Assembly: GCA_037431425.1 (NCBI GenBank)
Contig: GCA_037431425.1_4129.1
Length of the DNA stretch: 64,000 nt
Source: a phage
Strand: one strand, 5' to 3'
Position numbers and translations under genes: made by a program. A model generated the notes under the pieces. That model saw nothing but the letters and a program-made list of their open reading frames with translations. It was not told the DNA's origin and made no database searches. This document shows positions 10,732 to 47,765 of this stretch, piece by piece (position 1 is the first letter of the stretch; each line of letters opens with the position of its first letter).

Positions 10732-11546
10732 GAATTTTAAATATGCTTAAATCTCTTCACGAAACGACGAAATTGGTTCAGGATGAAAAATATCGTCGAA
10801 GTATTACAAAAGATTTAGCATGTCGAATGTATATGCGTAGATTCGAAATTTCTCGAATTGGTAAAAAATGGGATAATATAAATCGTGAAGACATTGACCC
10901 AGATGCTATTTTTAAAGCATACATGGCAAGAAAAGTTTTCATAAATGAAAAAACTTTTTATATAGATAGTGATAGGGTTCTAGAAGATAAATTCACTAAA
11001 GGTTTATGGAATATATGGTGTATTGAAATATTTGGAGAAGTTCTCCCTGAACCACCTGTACCTAAAACGTATAAAGAATTAAAAAATATTTTTGATAATG
11101 AACACATACATTCAAACTTCTCATTATATGACACTGTATCAGAAGCTGTATTTTATGGTGAGTTACATGGTCATAACAAATATTTTGATAGTATGGTTAG
11201 TTTTGATTTGTTTTGTCACTTACCAGGTGTGTCTAGCTGGACCAGTGATCAACACCGAGCTAGTAAGGTTGATAAACGTAAATTCTCTGCTCAAAGATTT
11301 ATGCAAGTTGCAATGAGTATGTATAAACTTGATTATCTTGGTTGTCCAGAACCATATACTCATTTCTGGAAAGAAAAAGCACAAAAATGCTTAAACTATT
11401 GTATAGTTCGTTTGATGGACACATACATTCTTAAGTTTAGGAATGCAACTGTATATGACATGCCAGAACCACCAGAGAATGAAAAGTATCCACCAGTAAA
11501 AACATTTGTATGGTACAGGGATAAAAGTAACAAAAGGATGCACTAA
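10728..11546 (+). CDS. hypothetical protein
   Basis: 272 aa; start overlaps upstream stop. Confidence 0.55.
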   Translation: MRILNMLKSLHETTKLVQDEKYRRSITKDLACRMYMRRFEISRIGKKWDNINREDIDPDAIFKAYMARKVFINEKTFYIDSDRVLEDKFTKGLWNIWCIEIFGEVLPEPPVPKTYKELKNIFDNEHIHSNFSLYDTVSEAVFYGELHGHNKYFDSMVSFDLFCHLPGVSSWTSDQHRASKVDKRKFSAQRFMQVAMSMYKLDYLGCPEPYTHFWKEKAQKCLNYCIVRLMDTYILKFRNATVYDMPEPPENEKYPPVKTFVWYRDKSNKRMH

Positions 11547-11562
11547 TGTGTATCCTTTTTTC
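11535..11562 (+). terminator. intrinsic terminator
   Basis: AGGATGCAC/GTGTATCCT stem followed by TTTTT; stop codon of upstream gene lies in the loop. Confidence 0.65.
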
Positions 11563-11572
11563 GTTTCATGTA

Positions 11573-11601
11573 TTGACATATGGTGTACCAGTATGTATAA
11601 T
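11573..11601 (+). promoter_or_regulatory. sigma70-type promoter (TTGACA-17-TATAAT)
   Basis: exact -35 and -10 hexamers, 17-nt spacer. Confidence 0.7.
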
Positions 11602-11642: not shown

Positions 11643-12770
11643 ATGAAAGGTAAATATTTTTTTGTTGAAAATGGGAAAGAAGTCGAAATTCAAGAATTCA
11701 ACTATAATTATGTACTGAACTCTTTATTAAAACAATATGACCGTTCATCAAACAAAAAATACATTTACAATGTGATTGTACGCCGTACTTATGATTCGTT
11801 GGGTAATCCATCATTTGATGTGAAATCATTGTCATTGGATGAAATCTATTTTGATAATAGACGCTTAAATGTATTTGATTTAATGAAAGATAAAATTCAT
11901 TTTAGTAATGTTAGAATTGACCCAAACATGCCAGTACCGCCATTGGAGCGTGAGTATCGTGAATGGAAAGAAGGTCGTGCAAAACCGCGTCTGGATTTGG
12001 TAAAAACATCACCCGACGTTCCTGCACCTATTGTTCTTAAGAAAAAACCAATCAACCCAGACGATACCCGAATTAAGGATATTGAATGTGTTGTTGAATT
12101 CCCAGACACTATTGAAAAGAACCCAGTCAAAGTGTTAGATTGGTTTATCAACTTACCAGTTTGTGCACAAGAAATTGGAACTAAGATTCAACAAGTTTCA
12201 GAACGACAACTGGAACTCAGTTCTGCATTACAACAGCATAGTGATTATATCAGAATGCTCATGGATAACTTAACAGTAGCTTTGGAAACCTTGTTCCCAC
12301 TGAAACCGACATTCACCCAGAAATTATTTGGTAAAACAGATATCAAAGTACAACCATCTGATTTACCAAAAGTGATGAAAAAACTCAATGAAGCAGTAAA
12401 GTATGATACCAACAAGTTTAGTGGTTTAAATTCTATGTTTTCTGAAATCAGAAAAGAAGTTAATGAAATCAAAAATGAACTTGAATATGGTAAGTTAGGC
12501 TGTGAATACGCACTATGCAGTGTGGATGATGCATTTGAATATGAATTAACATTAGAACGTATTATGAAAATGAGCATTACCACGTCTATGACAGAAACAA
12601 GTATTATTGCTACAAACAAACAATATCAAGTTGATATGAATCGTATGATTGACATTCAAACTATCACTATTCCTTTGATTATCAATCGTTTACAGTCACA
12701 GGCAGGTAAGGCGGTAGATACAAGTACTGTTGAGATTATTCGCAACCTTGCATATGGCAACAAAGAATAA
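11643..12770 (+). CDS. hypothetical protein
   Basis: 375 aa ORF with RBS. Confidence 0.6.
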   Translation: MKGKYFFVENGKEVEIQEFNYNYVLNSLLKQYDRSSNKKYIYNVIVRRTYDSLGNPSFDVKSLSLDEIYFDNRRLNVFDLMKDKIHFSNVRIDPNMPVPPLEREYREWKEGRAKPRLDLVKTSPDVPAPIVLKKKPINPDDTRIKDIECVVEFPDTIEKNPVKVLDWFINLPVCAQEIGTKIQQVSERQLELSSALQQHSDYIRMLMDNLTVALETLFPLKPTFTQKLFGKTDIKVQPSDLPKVMKKLNEAVKYDTNKFSGLNSMFSEIRKEVNEIKNELEYGKLGCEYALCSVDDAFEYELTLERIMKMSITTSMTETSIIATNKQYQVDMNRMIDIQTITIPLIINRLQSQAGKAVDTSTVEIIRNLAYGNKE

Positions 12771-12777
12771 AAAACAC

Positions 12778-12806
12778 TTGACTTGGATATGTGTTGAACG
12801 TATAAT
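12778..12806 (+). promoter_or_regulatory. sigma70-type promoter (TTGACT-17-TATAAT)
   Basis: near-consensus hexamers, 17-nt spacer. Confidence 0.7.
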
Positions 12807-12854: not shown

Positions 12855-13991
12855 ATGGCAGAGAAAGAAATCAATCCAAAAAAATCGTCAACAGTTACTA
12901 AAAACACAAAACGTTCTTCCAAAACTGCGGCGAAGGGTCACACAATTGATGCAAGTGATATTTTCAACCAAACAACAAAGTCACTCCCAGTACTAAAAGA
13001 TGTAAAGGGTAATACCATGTCACTAACAGTTCAAAACATCAACACTGTTGGTACAACTGCTGGTGCGGCGGTTGGTCGTTTGGCTGATGAAATTATGTCT
13101 AAGGTTAACGTAACCGATGACAATACCGAGTTTGGTAAATCAATCACTACAATTCTCACATTGACCCGTGCGGTTGATATTGATAGTCTTCAGGAAGATA
13201 AATCAATTGTTGGTCGCATTAAGAAATTCTTTGTTAATGCCCAACAGAAAGTCGGCGATCAATACAAAAATAGTAAAGAACAAATTGATGAAATTATGAA
13301 AACTCTACAAACTGGCATCAATCGTCAACATGGAGAGTGTGAGTGGCTTGATAAAGCATATAATGAAAACAAAGAATATTTGTTCGAATTACGTGATACA
13401 TTAGTTGGTTTAGAAGAAGTAACTAAAGCACAAGATGCAGTACTGGCAGAAATGCAAGCAAACAAAGACGTGGACTCTTTTGCTATTCAAGAGCAAAAGA
13501 TGATTTGTGAAGCACTTTCTAAGCAAGAAGACAAGATTCGCCGACTTATCATGATGTGTGAACTGAGTGGTCCACGATTGATGAGTATGAAAAAAGTAAA
13601 CTTAAACACTGTTTCTAAGTTTGAAGATTTGAAATCAGTAGTAATTCCTGCATGGAAATCGCAATTGGCTGAACAGCTAATCTCTGAGCGTCAACGTAAG
13701 GATAATGAATTGGGAAATCTAATTGACAATGAAACAAATCGTTTATTAGAGACTAACTCTAAGATGGTTGCAGCTAATATGCTGGATGCTGCAAAGGCAA
13801 ACAATCGTGGTATTGTGGATATTAAAACCTTGCGTAATGTACATAAAACAATGATTGACAGCATCGAAGCTGTTATTGAAGAAGAGAAAAAAGGTAAAAT
13901 GGAACGTGAACGTGCGAAACAAGAAATTGCACAACTTTCACACGAACTCGAAGACACACTTCGTGAAATTGCAGAAAAAGCTAACAAGTAA
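12855..13991 (+). CDS. hypothetical coiled-coil protein
   Basis: 378 aa, long charged helical segments; GAGGAAA RBS; function not recognised. Confidence 0.6.
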   Translation: MAEKEINPKKSSTVTKNTKRSSKTAAKGHTIDASDIFNQTTKSLPVLKDVKGNTMSLTVQNINTVGTTAGAAVGRLADEIMSKVNVTDDNTEFGKSITTILTLTRAVDIDSLQEDKSIVGRIKKFFVNAQQKVGDQYKNSKEQIDEIMKTLQTGINRQHGECEWLDKAYNENKEYLFELRDTLVGLEEVTKAQDAVLAEMQANKDVDSFAIQEQKMICEALSKQEDKIRRLIMMCELSGPRLMSMKKVNLNTVSKFEDLKSVVIPAWKSQLAEQLISERQRKDNELGNLIDNETNRLLETNSKMVAANMLDAAKANNRGIVDIKTLRNVHKTMIDSIEAVIEEEKKGKMERERAKQEIAQLSHELEDTLREIAEKANK

Positions 13992-13994
13992 TAG

Positions 13995-14023
13995 TTGACA
14001 CATGGGTGCGTTTTCGATATAAT
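13995..14023 (+). promoter_or_regulatory. sigma70-type promoter (TTGACA-17-TATAAT) nested in terminator hairpin
   Basis: consensus hexamers; -10 lies in loop of hairpin 14006-14049. Confidence 0.55.
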
Positions 14024-14073: not shown

Positions 14074-14763
14074 ATGAAGCGTAGACATATTAGTGTTGAT
14101 ATTGAGTCTCTTGGCACTCCTGAAAATTCAGGATATGATATTATTATTCCAAATTACGCAGCAGTTGTTGTTCCAAATAAACCTGAAAATGATATCAGGA
14201 ATTTTATATATGTTAAGTTGCCATACCAAGCACAAGTTAACGCTGGCCTGAAATCAGATTCAGGTGCAATGGATTTCTGGATGAATACTTGTCAGAAAGA
14301 ATATCCTAATGCATATGCAGAAGTTGCCAGTACTATGACTCTTCGTGCACCAGAATTGTACGGACCTAATGGTAAATCCAAACAAATCTTTACATCTAAT
14401 AGTATTGTCGATTTCTGGAAAGATATCCGTTATGATATCTATGGTAAAGAAGTTGAACATTCAATTTGGGGAAATGGTTGCAATTTCGACTGTAGTATTT
14501 TACAAGCTAATCACTTAAAACTATTGAATGTTGGTGATTTGTGGAAATATGATGCACCAGAAAATGCACGAACATTAAAACGTTTATTGAATGAAGATGC
14601 TCGTGCTGAAATGGATGAGATTGTGTCAGTGCAGTTAGCTAAATTCGTGAAGTATGCAGAACAATGTGGTATTAATGGTTTGGAATTACATCACCCTCTG
14701 TATGATGCAGCACGTGAAGCTATCCAAATCTCCTACTGTCTCAATAAACTTAAACTGGACTAA
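14074..14763 (+). CDS. dexA: DEDDh 3'-5' exonuclease (T4 DexA-like)
   Basis: 229 aa; Exo I motif VDIESLG, Exo II-like WGNGCNFDCSIL, Exo III H-x4-D (HHPLYDA); same order as recalled T4 DexA (227 aa). Confidence 0.75.
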   Translation: MKRRHISVDIESLGTPENSGYDIIIPNYAAVVVPNKPENDIRNFIYVKLPYQAQVNAGLKSDSGAMDFWMNTCQKEYPNAYAEVASTMTLRAPELYGPNGKSKQIFTSNSIVDFWKDIRYDIYGKEVEHSIWGNGCNFDCSILQANHLKLLNVGDLWKYDAPENARTLKRLLNEDARAEMDEIVSVQLAKFVKYAEQCGINGLELHHPLYDAAREAIQISYCLNKLKLD

Positions 14764-14766
14764 TAC

Positions 14767-15861
14767 ATGAATTTTATTATTCTGTTGATTCCTTCACTTA
14801 TCGTTGTATTTGTTATGAAATACATGTATGATAAGCATATCAGTACTAAAGAACTGTTGATTCATATTGGTTGTTGTATAGTTGGGGCTGCTCTTGTGCT
14901 TGGTATCTCATATGCAATCAACTACAGCCAATTGTACGATGTAGAGATTCTAAATGGGCAGGTAACATCCAAATATAATCACAAGGAGTTTTGTACACAA
15001 TCAAGCTCATGTAAGCATTACACGTGGCACGAGAAATGCAGAACTCGTTATGATAGTAAGGGGAAATCCCATCGTGAATGTGAGTCCTATAAGGTATTTG
15101 ATTATTCATACGAAGTTGACTGGTATGTAAAAAGTACTGTAGGGAAGTTTGAGATTGAGCGAGTAAACCGTCAGGGTACAATGACCCCTCCACGCTGGCA
15201 ACAGGTTAACATTGGGGATTATGTTGCCGCAGAAAGTTCTTATATTAACTATCTGTTCGCTGATAAAAACTCATTGTTTAGTCCTGATGAATTACATGAA
15301 ATGTATGATGAGAAATATCTTAGTTCTTTACCAGAATATCCAAGTATTAATGATTATTACATAACACATCATGTTATTAACAAAACAAATTATAATGTAT
15401 ATGGATATGAAGAATATTTACGTAACGTTTTGAAAACTATGGGTTCACGTAAAGAAGTCAATATCTTAGTTATTGTATACAATTATAAAGATAGTGATTT
15501 TGTTGATGCTACCTTAGCAAAGTGGCGTGGTGGTAAGAAGAATGATGTTATTATGTTCTTTGGTATTGATGGTGATGGTAATATTATTAAATTTAACAGT
15601 ACATCATTTGCCCAGGGAATGAAAAATGAAGGATTACATGCAAAGATGCGTATGGACGCATTAAATGAAAAATTAACGATTGACTTACTAGCAATAGAAG
15701 TGCATAATATTGATACACAGTTCGTGAGACTCTCTAATAAAGAGTTTGAGTACTTGTCTATTAAAATGGAACCACGAAAAGATGTTCTCATCGGTGCTTC
15801 TATTTTATTACTAATTATTTCTATTTTTATTGGCCTTTATATGAGGGATAACGAATTATGA
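14767..15861 (+). CDS. membrane protein (N- and C-terminal TM helices, Cys-rich central domain)
   Basis: 364 aa; hydrophobic segments at both ends; translationally coupled to downstream LemA-like gene. Confidence 0.6.
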   Translation: MNFIILLIPSLIVVFVMKYMYDKHISTKELLIHIGCCIVGAALVLGISYAINYSQLYDVEILNGQVTSKYNHKEFCTQSSSCKHYTWHEKCRTRYDSKGKSHRECESYKVFDYSYEVDWYVKSTVGKFEIERVNRQGTMTPPRWQQVNIGDYVAAESSYINYLFADKNSLFSPDELHEMYDEKYLSSLPEYPSINDYYITHHVINKTNYNVYGYEEYLRNVLKTMGSRKEVNILVIVYNYKDSDFVDATLAKWRGGKKNDVIMFFGIDGDGNIIKFNSTSFAQGMKNEGLHAKMRMDALNEKLTIDLLAIEVHNIDTQFVRLSNKEFEYLSIKMEPRKDVLIGASILLLIISIFIGLYMRDNEL

Positions 15862-16412
15862 ATGGTAAAGTTTTTGCATTAATTGGTGTTATTGTTGTAT
15901 TTGGTCTTATGGTAATTGGTTCCATTAGCATGTATGTAGGAACATATGATCGTGCGGTGGAATTTGAAGGTAATATTCAAAAGTATTATGATGCTTCAGA
16001 AAGTCAATTAAGTACTTATACCCTTACAATCCAAGAAAAGGTTCAAGTATCAGATAAGTATAAAGATGCATTGAAAGAAACAATTGAATCGTATTTCAAA
16101 GGACGTGAAGGTGTTGACCAGAAATTTGTAATGTCACAGATTCAACAGCAGGTTCCAAATCTTGATCCTAAAATTTACCAGGAGCTTATGGTAACAATTG
16201 AATCAGGACGTACAAAGTTCAACAATCTTCAAAAAATGAAAATCGACCAATGTACCGAATATTCCAAATTCCGCAAAGGATTCTGGAATTCCAAAATTCT
16301 TGATGTTAACACGTTTCCAAGTGAAAATATTGCACATCTTTGCACGGTAGTATCAGATACCCGCACAAAGAAAGCAATGGATACTGGTATTCAAGAAGTA
16401 ATTAAACTATAA
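15858..16412 (+). CDS. LemA-like membrane protein (tentative)
   Basis: 184 aa; single N-terminal TM then architecture resembling recalled LemA family (Y-x-x-x-V after TM; C-terminal ...Y..F.....FP.EN). Confidence 0.45.
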   Translation: MNGKVFALIGVIVVFGLMVIGSISMYVGTYDRAVEFEGNIQKYYDASESQLSTYTLTIQEKVQVSDKYKDALKETIESYFKGREGVDQKFVMSQIQQQVPNLDPKIYQELMVTIESGRTKFNNLQKMKIDQCTEYSKFRKGFWNSKILDVNTFPSENIAHLCTVVSDTRTKKAMDTGIQEVIKL

Positions 16413-16421
16413 TCTAAATCT

Positions 16422-16447
16422 GGGAGTACAAAATGTACTCCCATTTT
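16422..16447 (+). terminator. intrinsic terminator
   Basis: GGGAGTACA-aaa-TGTACTCCC followed by ATTTT. Confidence 0.7.
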
Positions 16448-17601: not shown

Positions 17602-17952
17602 ATGCTAATATATTTAAGTGTACTTGTTGTTTCGTTACTGTTATCACTGGTTATTTTAAAAATTATTGCTATTGTTCGAAGTAAGATTGATTGTTCTGAA
17701 ACTGGTTCAGTTATTGACTTGGTTCTTGATTATCCAAAGCGTTGTGGTGTTATTGTATTAATTGTTCTCCTTATGAATACATACATCGTCAGAGAACATT
17801 TATATAATATGTATGATTGTAGTGTTCGTTCATTTTCACAAGGTGTGGACACTGACTATAGTTGGTATTATAAGAAATGTCGATTTAAAAACCAACACGG
17901 TATTTGGGTTGATTTTGATAAATTACGTGGAACCCCTACTGGAGAAGAATAA
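17602..17952 (+). CDS. small membrane protein
   Basis: 116 aa; two hydrophobic helices. Confidence 0.5.
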   Translation: MLIYLSVLVVSLLLSLVILKIIAIVRSKIDCSETGSVIDLVLDYPKRCGVIVLIVLLMNTYIVREHLYNMYDCSVRSFSQGVDTDYSWYYKKCRFKNQHGIWVDFDKLRGTPTGEE

Positions 17953-18717: not shown

Positions 18718-18934
18718 TTCATATAATATGGAAGATTTACTAATACCATCCGAGAACAGTACTGTTAAGATGCAAATGTATTGGTTAGTAAAAGATGGTA
18801 AAGTATTTCAACACAAAGTTACAAAAGTATGGCAATGTAACAAAAACAAGTCAATAGTTGATGCACTAGCAACTGCATTTCCTGGTGTGGAGGTTGTATT
18901 TTTACCAGTTGCTTATATTAAGGAAATAAAATGA
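18698..18934 (+). CDS. hypothetical protein
   Basis: ATG 18698 after AGGAG RBS; track ORF 18674. Confidence 0.45.
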   Translation: MNEKIFNSYNMEDLLIPSENSTVKMQMYWLVKDGKVFQHKVTKVWQCNKNKSIVDALATAFPGVEVVFLPVAYIKEIK

Positions 18935-19098
18935 GAAAAGCATGGACAATATTCGTAATACCTATTATAATGTTGTTATTGGTAATCACGGTTCCACAAG
19001 TATACGTTGTTGCTTTGAATGTGGTGGAAATTATTCTTCTTGCAATTCACTGCCTTGTGTGTTATTACTACGTAAAATGGGATGATAAAAAAATATGA
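18931..19098 (+). CDS. small membrane protein (55 aa)
   Basis: not in ORF track (<60 aa); RBS AAGGAAA; overlapping stop/start with both neighbours. Confidence 0.45.
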   Translation: MRKAWTIFVIPIIMLLLVITVPQVYVVALNVVEIILLAIHCLVCYYYVKWDDKKI

Positions 19099-31322: not shown

Positions 31323-31611
31323 ACATGAAGTATTAGTATTAGATAATAAATTCTATGTACCAAATAATGATAGTACTGAAACATATTATCTAATTAATAA
31401 AATTATGACTGAAACTAATACTTGTTGTCGTCAAATCCCAGGAAAATATGAGTTCAGTCAGTCTATTGGCTATTATCGTTATAATCCATTGGAATCATTT
31501 ACAATTGACGTGTTGAAAGTTATTGACATTCTTGTACAGAATGGGTATAATGAAAAACATGTAAATAACTCAGAATTACCAGTTTCAAAAATCGTTATTT
31601 CTAATAATTAG
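31315..31611 (+). CDS. hypothetical protein
   Basis: ATG 31315 overlapping upstream stop; track start 31252. Confidence 0.45.
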   Translation: MNKHEVLVLDNKFYVPNNDSTETYYLINKIMTETNTCCRQIPGKYEFSQSIGYYRYNPLESFTIDVLKVIDILVQNGYNEKHVNNSELPVSKIVISNN

Positions 31612-35535: not shown

Positions 35536-35736
35536 ATGACAAAAGCAGAACTTGTTGCATTATTGGAATCATACCCTGATGATGCATGTATTGAAATTGT
35601 ACATACTACACGACATTTTGACATTGAAGATGTAGTACGTTATAATGATAAAGGTGTACTAATCATGGAACTGTGTATTGGTGAAGTGAAAACTGTACCT
35701 GAATCAGAAAAACGTAAAAAAATTAATCAGGAGTAA
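35536..35736 (+). CDS. hypothetical protein
   Basis: 66 aa. Confidence 0.5.
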   Translation: MTKAELVALLESYPDDACIEIVHTTRHFDIEDVVRYNDKGVLIMELCIGEVKTVPESEKRKKINQE

Positions 35737-36027: not shown

Positions 36028-36143
<116 letters not shown>

Positions 36144-36150
36144 CAAAAGA

Positions 36151-36224
36151 CGGGGTATAGCACAATTGGATAGTGCAAGAGAATTCTAATCTCTAGGTTG
36201 GGGGTTCAAGTCCCTCTACCTCGG
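36151..36224 (+). tRNA. tRNA-Arg (anticodon UCU)
   Basis: manual fold: acceptor CGGGGTA/TACCTCG, anticodon stem AGAGA/TCTCT, loop ATTCTAA, T-loop TTCAAGT. Confidence 0.75.
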
Positions 36225-36248
36225 CCTACTTCAATTAAAGGTTAAACC

Positions 36249-36413
36249 ATGACGCATGAAGAATGGATGAATGACATTAATTTTAGATATGCAGGTATCG
36301 GTAACTGGAGAAAGTATCATTGGGAAATCATATCAGACCCAGCAGAATACGATAAACTTATGAATCATGAAGTGTATCCGTGGTTCTTTATTGAAATAAT
36401 GGTACGATTATGA
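36249..36413 (+). CDS. MTHEEW-family small protein (54 aa), tandem copy 1
   Basis: not in track; MTHEEWMNDINFRYAGIG... Confidence 0.45.
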   Translation: MTHEEWMNDINFRYAGIGNWRKYHWEIISDPAEYDKLMNHEVYPWFFIEIMVRL

Positions 36414-36570
36414 CACATGAAGAATGGATGAATGACATTAATTTTAGATATTCGGGTATCGGTAAATGGCTAAAGTATCATTGGGAATTCATTTCAGAGC
36501 CACATCTGTATGATAAACTTATCAACGATTCTGCATATAAAATGTACTTAATTGAACTACTGGTACGAAC

Positions 36571-36574
<4 letters not shown>
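36410..36574 (+). CDS. MTHEEW-family small protein (54 aa), tandem copy 2
   Basis: MTHEEWMNDINFRYSGIG...; start overlaps upstream stop. Confidence 0.45.
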
Positions 36575-36743
<169 letters not shown>

Positions 36744-36747
36744 AATC

Positions 36748-37188
<441 letters not shown>

Positions 37189-37216
37189 GTATCTTAACAA
37201 CAGAAGGTATATTGAA

Positions 37217-37456
37217 ATGGGTAAGTATTTTGTGAGTTATAGTTATAATGTATCACGAAAGATTCCACGCGGTGACGGAATGGGATGGTCTTATGATGCA
37301 TATACTTTAAATGAGTCATGTATCATCGAATTACAAGAAAAAGACCTTGACATTTTAAAAATCAAACAATATATTCTTGATGTTGAATTGGCACATCGTA
37401 CTGATACCTATCCAGATGTAAACAACATCAGCATCTTAGTACTAACCAAAGTATAA
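37217..37456 (+). CDS. hypothetical protein
   Basis: ATG 37217 after AGAAGG RBS; track start 37187. Confidence 0.5.
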   Translation: MGKYFVSYSYNVSRKIPRGDGMGWSYDAYTLNESCIIELQEKDLDILKIKQYILDVELAHRTDTYPDVNNISILVLTKV

Positions 37457-37526
37457 GATAAAAAGAACTTTACTAAATAATTCCACTGGAGATTAATATG
37501 TTTAAAGATGAACGTCCAGATTTGTA

Positions 37527-37565
<39 letters not shown>

Positions 37566-37571
37566 GAATTC

Positions 37572-37925
37572 CACAATCAGACGTATATGGTGTAAGTTAC
37601 GTCGATGCTATCCAGAACAAGATCTCTGGTACTCTAGGAAGTGGTGAATGTTAACCTAGACGGGTTTGATAATTGGACGATAGGCAATTATTACTTGACT
37701 AGCAGGTTGAAACTAGAGGTGACAGTCCTTCACCAAACTGGAAAGCCGGATGGACTTTTATTTAAAAGGGTAAGGCGTGGAAATATGTTTACTGTAGTTG
37801 CTTTTAGTAGCCTGTACGCCCCACGTCAAGGTAGTCGAAAGGCAAGTTAAAACGGGTGGTTATAAAGCTGAATTAACAGCGGCGTTTAAAAGCGTCACCA
37901 TCCATTTTTTTAATTAAAGTTGGCT
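37572..37925 (+). ncRNA. candidate structured noncoding RNA (unclassified)
   Basis: noticeably more GC-rich than flanks; only a poor 69-codon ORF; directly downstream of consensus promoter; inside tRNA cluster. Confidence 0.3.
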
Positions 37926-37927
37926 AT

Positions 37928-38295
<368 letters not shown>

Positions 38296-38305
<10 letters not shown>

Positions 38306-38324
38306 TATTCAGTACTGATATAAT
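38296..38324 (+). promoter_or_regulatory. sigma70-type promoter (TGGACA-17-TATAAT) for tRNA-Ser
   Basis: -10 ends 6 nt before tRNA 5' end; spacer contains TTCAGTACTG. Confidence 0.55.
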
Positions 38325-38330
38325 TAATTT

Positions 38331-38417
<87 letters not shown>

Positions 38418-38429
38418 TAAATTGTTCCA

Positions 38430-38516
<87 letters not shown>

Positions 38517-38566
38517 CTGATATTGTTATTATATGAGTTCTAACGATAATGAAACACTAGGAACAT

Positions 38567-38737
<171 letters not shown>

Positions 38738-38761
38738 ACGAAATTACAATAGGAAATTAAA

Positions 38762-38947
38762 ATGCAACTTTTAATTCTTTCAATATTGTATATTATTATA
38801 ATGGTTCCGATATCAATACGTTTAATTACAGTTGAACGATTTTTATCGAAACATGGAAATAGATCTATGATATTTGTACCAATCGGGTTGATATTGTTTG
38901 GTATATTTTCATTTATAATGGGAATTAACGCTACATTCATTTCATAG
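38762..38947 (+). CDS. small membrane protein
   Basis: 61 aa, two hydrophobic helices; RBS AGGAAA. Confidence 0.5.
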   Translation: MQLLILSILYIIIMVPISIRLITVERFLSKHGNRSMIFVPIGLILFGIFSFIMGINATFIS

Positions 38948-38956
38948 GAAACAAAT

Positions 38957-39214
<258 letters not shown>

Positions 39215-39316
39215 ATAAAAAGAACGAAAAGTAGACGGTCGTATTCAGTACTGAATCACCAGGGGAGGTTGTGATTCCCGATTCAGTAGCTTAAAAGCAG
39301 ACCCGTATGTGCCTAA

Positions 39317-39369
<53 letters not shown>

Positions 39370-39370
39370 T

Positions 39371-39416
<46 letters not shown>

Positions 39417-39417
39417 T

Positions 39418-39551
<134 letters not shown>

Positions 39552-39553
39552 TA

Positions 39554-39737
<184 letters not shown>

Positions 39738-39817
39738 TAAATAATACAGTAAGATGGCCTCCCCTCCATATCATGAGAGTATAGAGACTTGTTGGTTATC
39801 TTACTTTTAAACAAACT

Positions 39818-39891
39818 GCCTCAATAGCAAAATTGGTAATGCACACGTTTTGTAAGCGTGAGATTTTTCCGTTCGAGTCGGAATTGGGGCA
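39818..39891 (+). tRNA. tRNA-Thr (anticodon UGU)
   Basis: manual fold: acceptor GCCTCAA/TTGGGGC (one GU), anticodon stem CACGT/GCGTG, loop TTTGTAA, T-arm TTCCG-TTCGAGT-CGGAA; variable loop 6 nt (slightly atypical). Confidence 0.65.
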
Positions 39892-39908
39892 CAAAATAAA
39901 GGCACACT

Positions 39909-40325: not shown

Positions 40326-40683
40326 TTTAATAACTCGTATAATGCAAGATGTTCGTAAGAATCTTTATACTGGTAATTTTGATGATCCTAACATAAAAAT
40401 ATTATGTTATGATGGATTCACACTGGTACATCCATCAGAATCTAATAATATATACATAGCATATACTTCTCCTAATCTTTTGTATCAATTTGATTTATAT
40501 AGTACATTAGCGAAAGTAATCTTAGATGTTTCAAAGGAGCCAATTTTTATAGCAGTACGTGATATTGAGTACACAGAAGAATCATTATTCCAGTACTCAA
40601 CGATAAATGACATTGGTGGGTTGACATTGGATGAGGTTAATGCTATAATAGCAGTCTCACGTTTGATTGATACTCACAATTAG
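40318..40683 (+). CDS. CtFQ-family small protein
   Basis: 121 aa; motif EESLFQYSTINDI. Confidence 0.6.
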   Translation: MTSLITRIMQDVRKNLYTGNFDDPNIKILCYDGFTLVHPSESNNIYIAYTSPNLLYQFDLYSTLAKVILDVSKEPIFIAVRDIEYTEESLFQYSTINDIGGLTLDEVNAIIAVSRLIDTHN

Positions 40684-47260: not shown

Positions 47261-47721
47261 TGATACTACTAGTATTATTATCAAGCCCGTTTGCTTATTT
47301 TATTCTGTATAATATTTTTAGTAATGCTCATCATTTTAAATACGCACAAACAATTGCAAAACATGAAGGATGGTGGCATTTTTTTCCAGCACTACTGTGT
47401 TCATATATGTTCAATGAACGCTATTTTATTTTTCCAGAATATACAAAGTACTATTATGATACTAAAATAAATGGCATAATTGAGTACTGTCTACGTAATT
47501 ATCTGAACAATACAGATAATGTTAAAGTGAATTTATTAAATGGAAATTCACCAAGAATAGTCTTTACATCTTACATAGAAGACCCCATTTACTTATATCT
47601 ATATGATTATAGTATTTCGGTTCGTTGTTCTATGCGTAGTAGTTGTGAGTACTTTATCTTACTACCTACACAAATAAGATTAATAGAAAAATACTTGAAA
47701 TTGATTGACAAAAAAGATTAG
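47260..47721 (+). CDS. membrane-anchored hypothetical protein
   Basis: 153 aa; N-terminal hydrophobic segment. Confidence 0.5.
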   Translation: MILLVLLSSPFAYFILYNIFSNAHHFKYAQTIAKHEGWWHFFPALLCSYMFNERYFIFPEYTKYYYDTKINGIIEYCLRNYLNNTDNVKVNLLNGNSPRIVFTSYIEDPIYLYLYDYSISVRCSMRSSCEYFILLPTQIRLIEKYLKLIDKKD

Positions 47722-47765
47722 TAGGGTTATAATCATAAGACTAACCGACAAAAGAGGAACTGAAA

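What the first reader, a model, noticed from the sequence alone, without database searches (positions are those of the whole stretch)
14767..16412. Translationally coupled membrane-protein pair including a LemA-like protein
A 364-aa protein with TM helices at both termini and a Cys-rich central domain is coupled (ATGA overlap) to a 184-aa single-TM protein whose layout resembles the bacterial LemA family. In bacteria LemA genes are typically paired with a second membrane protein; a phage-borne pair suggests a membrane-remodelling or superinfection-exclusion module.
Basis: partly seen in the sequence, partly recalled or inferred. Interest (0 to 1): 0.45.

Follow-up and report, generated by a model that had tools for sequence, protein, structure and literature searches.

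The report
Phage LemA–TPM inner-membrane gene pair
Two overlapping genes of a jumbo coliphage encode very divergent copies of the bacterial LemA protein and its usual TPM-domain partner; the pair is kept together in about 480 large phages of Gram-negative bacteria, and its function is unknown in both phages and bacteria.

Summary
ORFs 14767..15861 (364 aa) and 15858..16412 (184 aa) overlap in ATGA, and both encode membrane proteins. The window is an Asteriusvirus jumbo coliphage, 98.8% identical to phage ph0011.

**LemA-like protein (184 aa).** It has no direct Pfam LemA hit. Its family is nevertheless homologous to LemA:
- hhalign against bona fide PF04011 proteins gives 90.7% (narrow family) and 98.2%, E 5e-14 (wide family).
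- The wide family profile finds only PDB 2ETD (LemA), at E 1e-7.

**The pairing.** TPM proteins directly follow LemA in 5 of 7 bacterial loci inspected. In 79 of 80 viral loci the LemA-like gene directly follows the TPM-like gene. About 480 isolated phage genomes carry both, and every host genus listed is a Proteobacterium.

**Transcription here.** The pair sits with an exonuclease gene between a perfect sigma-70 promoter and a terminator.

**Interpretation.** Charge bias and co-varying cysteines place both soluble domains in the periplasm. The most likely reading is an early-made inner-membrane complex acting on the host envelope. The biochemical role is untested. I rate it a new variant of a known kind, of moderate interest.

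The parts
13995..14023 (+). Perfect sigma-70 promoter (TTGACA-N17-TATAAT), the likely start of the transcription unit
   Evidence: 12/12 match. It is one of six perfect matches in the window, all on the + strand, against 0.04 expected by chance. In phage G17 an annotated terminator precedes the orthologous exonuclease gene.
14074..14763 (+). Rv2179c-like 3'-5' exonuclease gene. It is the first gene of the unit in this phage lineage and is not part of the conserved pair.
   Evidence: PF16473 at 2.2e-8 and phrog_255 at 4.5e-33. Its stop lies 3 nt before the ATG at 14767. It is linked to the pair only in the Asteriusvirus/GAP32-like clade.
14767..15861 (+). Gene for the 364-aa TPM-domain membrane protein
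14767..14928 (+). N-terminal hydrophobic hairpin: residues 1-22 and 27-54, with a K/R-rich loop at residues 18-29
   Evidence: Hydropathy and family charge bias (loop K+R 2.41 against D+E 1.45); helices 4-21 and 27-54 in the model.
14929..15366 (+). [not shown]
   Evidence: Strands 57-75, 85-95, 101-111, 115-123, 126-130 and 152-160. C76/C82/C91 are at least 88% conserved; D58, G64, K69, P141, N161 and Y191 are invariant. No Pfam family at E<=0.01 in 66 members other than weak TPM.
15367..15726 (+). TPM domain (residues ~201-320): four strands flanked by four helices, with an invariant W-x-G-G-K-K-N-D loop at residues 253-260
15772..15849 (+). C-terminal transmembrane helix (residues 336-361) followed by a short basic tail
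   Evidence: Hydropathy peak 2.69; in the family the tail has K+R 2.92 against D+E 1.52; helix 338-361 in the model.
15858..15861 (+). ATGA start/stop overlap (translational coupling)
   Evidence: Read directly from the sequence. The same -4 overlap occurs in 20 related loci, and 85 of 99 loci have a spacing of 50 nt or less.
15858..16412 (+). Gene for the 184-aa divergent LemA-family protein: N-terminal TM (residues 1-30) plus a helical domain
   Evidence: ORF; hhalign against bona fide LemA 90.7% and 98.2%; 2ETD at E 1.1e-7; annotated 'LEMA protein' in phages ph0011 and Ecwhy_1.
16421..16443 (+). Intrinsic terminator closing the unit
   Evidence: 10-bp stem with 5 GC pairs, followed by a T run. 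An orthologous terminator was annotated independently in phage G17.

Best explanation
The two genes encode a phage version of the bacterial LemA–TPM membrane-protein pair.

**Shown**
- The 184-aa protein is a remote homologue of LemA: one N-terminal TM helix plus a helical domain.
- The 364-aa protein contains a TPM fold. A Cys-bearing beta-rich domain precedes it, and the whole is bracketed by an N-terminal hydrophobic hairpin and a C-terminal TM helix.
- The two genes are adjacent and co-oriented in 79 of 80 viral loci and have near-identical distributions in isolated phages.
- In this phage they lie between a perfect sigma-70 promoter and a terminator.

**Inferred**
- The unit is transcribed early by host RNA polymerase.
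- The ATGA overlap couples translation of the two proteins.
- Both proteins insert into the host inner membrane with their soluble domains in the periplasm, where conserved cysteines form disulfides.
- The two proteins act as one complex.

**Most likely role (inferred, not shown).** The complex has a conserved biochemical or chaperone-like action on a universal envelope or inner-membrane component. This would keep the infected cell's membrane functional during the long cycle of large virulent myoviruses. Characterised TPM proteins offer the analogy: they act as extracytoplasmic accessory factors of membrane complexes.
For: **LemA homology**
- 23 of 139 family representatives hit PF04011.
- The family profile hits only 2etd_A 'lemA protein', E 1.1e-7, across the whole soluble domain.
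- hhalign A1 vs A4: 90.7%, E 1.3e-6, 151 columns. A3 vs A4: 98.2%, E 4.7e-14, 141 columns.
- An HMM built from bona fide LemA picks out the gene downstream of the TPM-like gene in 36 phage loci, with one off-target hit. The ph0011 orthologue scores E 5e-3.

**TPM fold**
- The secondary-structure order, four strands and four helices, fits the published definition of the fold.

**Canonical pairing in bacteria**
-.

**Module conservation**
- 79 of 80 viral loci have the pair.
- These two are the only gene families shared across the 57 locus groups defined at 60% TPM-protein identity.
- 480 and 474 phage genomes carry them, with matching genus counts.

**Topology**
- K/R bias in the loop and C-tail of the TPM protein and at the N-terminus of the LemA-like protein.
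- C132 and C162 of the LemA-like protein are each Cys in 49 of 139 representatives; 50 have exactly two Cys in the soluble domain and 76 have none.
- All hosts listed are Proteobacteria.

**Transcription unit**
-.

**Not a virion protein**
- Neither gp143 nor gp144 appears in the phAPEC6 paper, whose Table 1 lists the MS virion proteome.
Against: - The window's two proteins have no significant direct hit to Pfam LemA or TPM, NCBIfam or PADLOC.
- Sequence-level support for TPM is weak: 4 of 66 members at best 1.6e-3 against Pfam, and hhalign probabilities of 3.5-6.9%.
- Gene order is reversed relative to bacteria. The partner lacks the Gly-rich tail of YgcG-type TPM proteins, and its family consensus shows no Asp at the first TPM strand.
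- Physical interaction, topology, timing of expression and any phenotype are all inferred. The function of bacterial LemA–TPM is itself unknown, so the analogy carries little mechanistic content.
Confidence: 0.6

Rival explanations
1. Superinfection-exclusion module. The periplasm-facing complex blocks DNA injection or wall penetration by secondary phages, as T4 Imm and Sp do.
For: The unit has a probable early promoter. Both proteins are predicted to sit in the inner membrane facing the periplasm.
Against: The pair occurs in phages of at least 17 named proteobacterial host genera. It has invariant motifs (D58, G64, K69, P141, N161, Y191, GK-ND) and 57 sequence groups. From my own knowledge, known exclusion proteins are lineage-restricted and fast-evolving. 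No exclusion family was hit.
Confidence: 0.15
2. Lysis-timing device. It would be a holin, antiholin or lysis regulator, with the periplasmic domains sensing or controlling hole formation.
For: The Vi01 orthologue of the TPM-like gene carries the gene label 'host lysis protein'. A type II membrane protein with a periplasmic helical domain and disulfide-forming cysteines resembles i-spanins or the T4 holin T in layout only (own knowledge).
Against: Perfect sigma-70 promoters point to early rather than late expression. No endolysin or spanin family is conserved next to the pair across loci. Homology is to LemA and TPM, not to any holin or spanin family. The basis of the Vi01 label is not documented.
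Confidence: 0.1
3. Virion structural protein, as the PHROG label and several GenBank records state for the 184-aa protein.
For: phrog_1383 is labelled 'virion structural protein'. The same label, or 'putative structural protein', appears in several records.
Against: Neither gp143 nor gp144 is mentioned in the phAPEC6 paper that reports 62 virion proteins by ESI-MS/MS; that locus is 86% identical in DNA to this one. The protein is a bitopic membrane protein homologous to LemA and is always paired with a three-TM protein. The labels match PHROG wording and look automated. The Agricanvirus mass spectrometry I could read used crude lysates.
Confidence: 0.05
4. The resemblance to LemA and TPM is spurious, arising from compositional or helical-bundle similarity, and the pair is an unrelated phage-specific membrane module.
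For: There are no direct Pfam hits. The fold searches of the 184-aa model do not recover 2ETD. hhalign probabilities for TPM are low.
Confidence: 0.05

Closest known systems
Bacterial LemA (PF04011; T. maritima TM0961, PDB 2ETD) with its downstream TPM/YgcG-family partner (PF04536)
   Same: Both are two adjacent, co-oriented, overlapping or nearly overlapping genes. One encodes a bitopic ~185-195-aa protein with an N-terminal TM helix and a helical domain, and the (E/Q)-x-x-P-N-L motif aligns. The other encodes a membrane-anchored TPM-domain protein with a C-terminal TM helix.
   Different: - Gene order is TPM then LemA in the phages, and LemA then TPM in bacteria. One contig binned in a bacterial MAG (L091) has the bacterial order.
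- The phage TPM protein has a hydrophobic hairpin in place of a signal peptide, an extra ~145-residue Cys-bearing beta-rich domain and linker, and no Gly-rich tail.
- Sequence identity is so low that the curated HMMs miss both proteins.
Characterised TPM-domain proteins: AtTLP18.3 and Psb32 (photosystem II repair), BA41/BA42 of Bizionia, Rhom172_1776, CrLMTP1, and the DUF5130 chain of the M. smegmatis CIII2CIV2 entry (6adq_J)
   Different: Identity is 8-16%. The metal site between strand A and helix I described for CrLMTP1 (Asp/Glu) is not evident in the phage family consensus. The phage family's invariant residues lie in the W-x-G-G-K-K-N-D loop instead. No activity or client is known for the phage protein.
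LemA with a DUF2207 partner
   Same: This is another LemA pairing with a large membrane protein. A DUF2207 gene lies two genes upstream of LemA in Fusobacterium, and a 524-aa hypothetical protein overlaps LemA in Streptomyces.
   Different: No member of the phage partner family hits DUF2207. The phage family HMM does not match the Fusobacterium DUF2207 protein.
T4 Imm/Sp superinfection-exclusion proteins and T4 holin T/antiholin RI
   Same: They are phage-encoded inner-membrane proteins with periplasm-facing parts that alter the envelope of the infected cell. This rests on my own knowledge and is an analogy of location only.
   Different: No sequence or fold relationship was found. Those proteins are lineage-restricted, whereas this pair spans many phage families.

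Membership tests
LemA family (PF04011) | Score above the Pfam gathering threshold for PF04011 | tested here: not met
   No PF04011 hit at E<=1 for the window protein. Of 139 family representatives, 23 hit at E<0.01, best 2.9e-6.
LemA family (PF04011) | Homology to bona fide LemA over the whole soluble domain, by profile methods | tested here: met
   hhalign 90.7% / E 1.3e-6 (A1 vs A4) and 98.2% / E 4.7e-14 (A3 vs A4). hmmsearch against PDB returns 2etd_A as the only significant hit, E 1.1e-7, query positions 29-158 against chain positions 9-155. A bona fide LemA HMM hits 54 of 139 representatives.
LemA family (PF04011) | Architecture: ~185-200 aa, a single N-terminal TM helix, then an all-helical domain | tested here: met
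   184 aa; one hydrophobic segment at residues 1-30; all-helical model. The 44 aligned LemA proteins listed are 182-195 aa long.
LemA family (PF04011) | Conserved E-N-Y-P-N-L motif preceding the last long helix | tested here: inconclusive
   P100, N101 and L102 align with P119/N/L121 of LemA. The Glu is at least 90% conserved in the wide family, but it is Gln (Q97) in this protein and its close relatives.
LemA family (PF04011) | Helical-bundle fold of PDB 2ETD | tested here: inconclusive
   [not shown]
LemA family (PF04011) | Genomic pairing with a TPM/YgcG or DUF2207 membrane protein | tested here: met
   Partner with a TPM fold. Adjacent in 79 of 80 viral loci. Bacterial reference loci.
TPM domain (PF04536) | Fold: central four-stranded sheet flanked by amphipathic helices | tested here: met
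   [not shown]
TPM domain (PF04536) | Significant match to the Pfam PF04536 HMM | tested here: not met
   None for the window protein. Four of 66 homologues hit, best 1.6e-3. hhalign against bacterial LemA-linked TPM proteins gives E 0.012 and 0.005, probability 3.5-6.9%, though in the correct register.
TPM domain (PF04536) | Extracytoplasmic location with a membrane anchor | tested here: inconclusive
   Predicted only. The evidence is positive-inside charge bias and conserved ectodomain cysteines. It needs fusion or accessibility mapping.
TPM domain (PF04536), YgcG type | Signal peptide, TPM domain, C-terminal TM helix, Gly-rich tail | tested here: not met
   The C-terminal TM helix is present. 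The N-terminus is a two-helix hairpin followed by an extra domain, and the tail is RDNEL rather than Gly-rich.
TPM domain (PF04536) | Divalent-metal site between strand A and helix I, or phosphatase/nucleotidase activity | not testable with these tools
   The site is described for CrLMTP1 only and is absent from its paralogue. The phage family consensus shows no Asp at strand A. Activity needs biochemistry.
Virion structural protein (phrog_1383 label) | Detected in purified virions | tested here: not met
   gp143 and gp144 are not mentioned in the phAPEC6 paper, whose Table 1 lists the ESI-MS/MS virion proteome. This is literature evidence for a relative, not for this phage.
Anti-phage defence or exclusion systems (PADLOC) | Match to a known defence-system protein model | tested here: not met
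   No PADLOC hit for either protein at E<=1.

The most novel reading that the evidence does not exclude
The LemA–TPM pair is an unrecognised, near-core 'envelope takeover' function of large virulent myoviruses of Proteobacteria. These include Ackermannviridae, Asteriusvirus and other jumbo phages, Aeromonas T4-likes, ICP1, and phages of Acinetobacter, Sinorhizobium and Xanthomonas. The phage-specific Cys-bearing beta-rich domain would target the complex to a universal periplasmic or inner-membrane client. Working out what the phage pair does would then also reveal the still-unknown function of the widespread bacterial LemA–TPM operon.
Probability: 0.3. Interest if true: 0.65.

Novelty: new variant of a known kind. 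Interest (0 to 1): 0.45.

Why it matters
LemA and TPM-domain proteins are widespread in bacteria. TPM proteins also occur in chloroplasts and invertebrates. There is still no agreed molecular function for either family.

Here a highly diverged copy of the pair stays rigidly linked in about 480 sequenced large lytic phages that infect many proteobacterial genera. These include therapy-relevant and model phages such as Vi01-like phages, ICP1 and Asteriusvirus. That linkage argues the two proteins work as one unit on a conserved envelope target. It also offers a tractable system for finding out what the unit does: a phage deletion or a plasmid expressing the pair, tested in E. coli, Salmonella or Vibrio.

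Practically, the result corrects database labels. The 364-aa protein is a TPM-domain membrane protein, not 'hypothetical'. The 'virion structural protein' label on the 184-aa family is probably wrong.

Tried and rejected
- **Direct family scans of both proteins.** Pfam, NCBIfam and PADLOC gave nothing meaningful.
- **Narrow-family and partner-family profiles against PDB.** Nothing found.
- **hhalign of the narrow family against the single 2ETD sequence.** Not significant: E 0.19, although in the right register.
- **AFDB Foldseek.** Not available.
- **Sequence-level proof of TPM.** hhalign against small alignments of bacterial TPM partners was only suggestive.
- **DUF2207 kinship of the partner.** No support.
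- **A third conserved partner gene.** None exists. TelA, orf375 and the exonuclease travel with the pair only in the Asteriusvirus/GAP32-like clade.
- **orf375 as a TelA paralogue.** No similarity.
- **A cellular (non-phage) home for this variant.** Only 26 loci were found among genomes of 185,579 species, mostly MAG contigs. The Achromobacter isolate locus sits among YqaJ, RecA and thymidine-kinase genes, a phage-like context.
- **Literature searches for phage LemA/TPM/TelA function.** Nothing relevant came back, including from a 2026 review of jumbo phages.

Full report
**What the window is.** The 5.5-kb stretch around the finding is 98.8% identical to Escherichia phage ph0011. It is about 86% identical to phAPEC6, PBECO4, G17 and other Asteriusvirus jumbo coliphages of about 350 kb. 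Nearly all of the larger ORFs lie on the + strand.

**The observation.**
- ORF 14767..15861 (364 aa) and ORF 15858..16412 (184 aa) are present. They share ATGA at 15858-15861, and a GAGGG lies upstream of the second start.
- Hydropathy finds three hydrophobic segments in the 364-aa protein (residues 1-22, 27-54, 336-361) and one in the 184-aa protein (residues 1-30).
- The ectodomain of the larger protein has four cysteines. C76, C82 and C91 are at least 88% conserved in 66 homologues.
- Both ORFs are real genes. They match phrog_2087 (2e-129) and phrog_1383 (1.7e-65). They also have large homologue families.

**Is the 184-aa protein LemA-like?**
- Direct scans say no. Pfam has no PF04011 hit at E<=1, and NCBIfam and PADLOC give nothing.
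- A profile of close relatives only (A1, at least 53% identity) was searched against 1.84 billion representatives. It found 772 clusters, and all but a few of the 150 listed are 175-205 aa long.
- Of 139 of these representatives (alignment A3), 23 hit PF04011 on their own, best 2.9e-6.
- The A3 profile searched against all PDB sequences gives one significant hit. It is 2etd_A, 'lemA protein' of Thermotoga maritima, at E 1.1e-7, and it covers the whole soluble domain.
- I built an independent alignment of 44 bona fide PF04011 proteins (A4). hhalign gives 90.7% probability (E 1.3e-6, 151 columns) for A1 against A4. For A3 against A4 it gives 98.2% (E 4.7e-14, 141 columns).
- An HMM of A4 alone was searched against all ORFs of 82 phage loci. 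It picks out the gene downstream of the partner in 36 loci, with one off-target hit. The ph0011 orthologue scores E 5e-3.
- Fold searches of the moderate AF2 model (pLDDT 72) do not list 2ETD, so that test is inconclusive.
- Conclusion: the protein is a remote member of the LemA superfamily, below the reach of the curated HMM. Two GenBank records (ph0011, Ecwhy_1) already call the orthologue 'LEMA protein'.

**What is the 364-aa partner?**
- It has no family hits.
- Its AF2 model is confident: pLDDT 88, with block means of 88-97 across the C-terminal alpha/beta domain.
- The element order matches the published description of the fold, four strands flanked by four helices.
- Sequence support is weak but points the same way. 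Four of 66 homologues hit PF04536. hhalign places the invariant W-x-G-G-K-K-N-D loop on the W-G-I-G-x-x-x-N-N-G loop of bacterial TPM proteins.

**Is TPM the usual LemA partner?**
- Yes, as checked here. The gene directly downstream of T. maritima LemA (the 2ETD protein itself) and of Neobacillus LemA is a PF04536 protein that overlaps LemA by one base.
- Annotated loci in Legionella, Burkholderia and Halomonas show LemA followed by YgcG/TPM genes.
- Streptomyces and Fusobacterium show other partners: a 524-aa hypothetical protein, and a DUF2207 protein nearby.
- The bacterial partners have a signal peptide, a TPM domain, a C-terminal TM helix and a Gly-rich tail.
- The phage protein differs at both ends and carries the extra domain. 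The gene order is also reversed.

**How conserved is the pair?**
- A scan of IMG/VR found 195 confirmed loci, of which 80 were kept.
- In 79 of those 80, the LemA-like gene lies directly downstream on the same strand. The one exception is a contig that ends there.
- I added 26 loci from the genome collection and grouped all loci at 60% partner identity, which gave 57 groups. The only gene families shared broadly are these two. TelA, orf375 and the exonuclease accompany them only in the Asteriusvirus/GAP32-like clade.
- Spacing is -4 nt in 20 loci and 50 nt or less in 85 of 99.
- Among 50,697 isolated phage genomes, 480 carry the partner and 474 carry the LemA-like gene. Genus counts are almost identical: Salmonella 166/166, Escherichia 63/63, Klebsiella 55/54, Erwinia 29/29, Aeromonas 26/25, Acinetobacter 23/23, Serratia 22/22, Vibrio 22/22, Dickeya 19/19, Sinorhizobium 8/8.
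- Carriers include Vi01-like Ackermannviridae, ICP1, Aeromonas T4-likes, Erwinia jumbo phages and Delftia phage PhiW-14. Every host listed is a Proteobacterium.
- In genomes of 185,579 bacterial and archaeal species only 26 loci appear. Most are on MAG contigs. The Achromobacter isolate locus lies among YqaJ, RecA and thymidine-kinase genes, a phage-like context.

**Expression context.**
- A perfect TTGACA-N17-TATAAT promoter sits at 13995-14023. It is one of six perfect matches in the window, all on the coding strand, against 0.04 expected by chance.
- It precedes the Rv2179c-like exonuclease gene (14074..14763). That gene's stop is 3 nt before the partner's ATG.
- A strong terminator (16421-16443) follows the LemA-like gene.
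- In phage G17, terminators were annotated independently at the equivalent positions on both sides of the three genes.
- TelA (12855..13991; PF05816 at 1.3e-38) lies upstream with its own near-consensus promoter.
- Early transcription by host RNA polymerase is inferred from these signals, not shown.

**Topology.**
- Across the partner family, the loop between the first two hydrophobic segments and the C-terminal tail are K/R-rich. The flanks of the ectodomain are acidic.
- Across the LemA-like family, the N-terminus is basic and the post-TM stretch is acidic.
- By the positive-inside rule, both soluble domains face the periplasm.
- C132 and C162 of the LemA-like protein are each Cys in 49 of 139 representatives. 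Fifty representatives have exactly two Cys in the soluble domain and 76 have none. This pattern fits a disulfide.

**Mechanism.**
- Shown: homology of the two halves to the two halves of a known bacterial pair, rigid linkage between them, and a defined transcription unit.
- Inferred: a periplasm-facing inner-membrane heterocomplex made early in infection.
- The breadth of hosts and the invariant residues (D58, G64, K69, P141, N161, Y191, G256, K257, N259, D260) favour a conserved biochemical or chaperone-like action on a universal envelope component. They fit a host-specific exclusion device less well.
- Characterised TPM proteins are accessory factors of membrane complexes, and they have no agreed single activity.
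- The 'virion structural protein' label of phrog_1383 is not supported. The paper reporting the phAPEC6 MS virion proteome mentions neither orthologue.
- The 'host lysis protein' gene label on the Vi01 orthologue is undocumented.

**Novelty.** LemA-likeness had already been noted by two annotators. I did not find three things described in the papers available to me, including a 2026 review of jumbo phages: the TPM identity of the partner, the equivalence to the bacterial LemA–TPM operon, and the breadth and rigidity of the phage module. I rate it a new variant of a known kind. The function remains unknown.

Noticed in passing
window 11573-11601, 13995-14023, 31523-31551, 35618-35646, 40621-40649, 47705-47733 (+): Six perfect TTGACA-N17-TATAAT sigma-70 promoters, all on the coding strand, against 0.04 expected by chance. 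They probably mark early transcription units of this jumbo phage.
   Followed up: partly
window 12855-13991 (+): A TelA-family gene ('toxic anion resistance'; PF05816 at 1.3e-38, phrog_5890) with its own 11/12 promoter at 12778-12806. It travels with the LemA–TPM pair only in the Asteriusvirus/GAP32-like clade.
   Followed up: partly
window 11643-12770 (+): A 375-aa protein of unknown function (phrog_13312), preceded by a perfect promoter and a terminator at 11532-11559. It shows no similarity to TelA. phAPEC6 annotates the orthologue as 'S-layer domain-containing'.
   Followed up: partly
window 36057-39892 (+): Cluster of six tRNA genes: Ser-TGA, Arg-TCT, Ser-GCT, Met-CAT, Asn-GTT and Thr-TGT.
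   Followed up: no
[not shown]
   Followed up: no
L113 5001-6110 (Salmonella phage Vi01, Vi01_203): The TPM-like orthologue carries the gene label 'host lysis protein' in the Vi01 record, with no stated basis.
   Followed up: no
L114 3989-5017 and 5034-5582 (Vibrio phage ICP1): The model cholera phage ICP1 carries the pair, both genes annotated as hypothetical proteins, in a same-strand block of genes running from old numbers GP45 to GP29. ICP1 would be a tractable system for testing function.
   Followed up: no
L091 356-910 and 913-1995: One MAG contig has the pair in the bacterial order, LemA-like gene first and TPM-like gene second.
   Followed up: no
L093 (Achromobacter anxifer LMG 26857, contig of 487 kb): The pair lies next to YqaJ-like recombinase, RecA and thymidine-kinase genes and a protein with a mechanosensitive-channel domain. 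This suggests a large prophage or phage-derived island in a bacterial isolate.
   Followed up: partly
window 17602-17952 and 18931-19098 (+): Two further small hydrophobic ORFs lie downstream. The 116-aa one matches phrog_8041, and its orthologue is called 'WWE domain-containing' in ph0011. The other is a 55-aa ORF.
   Followed up: no
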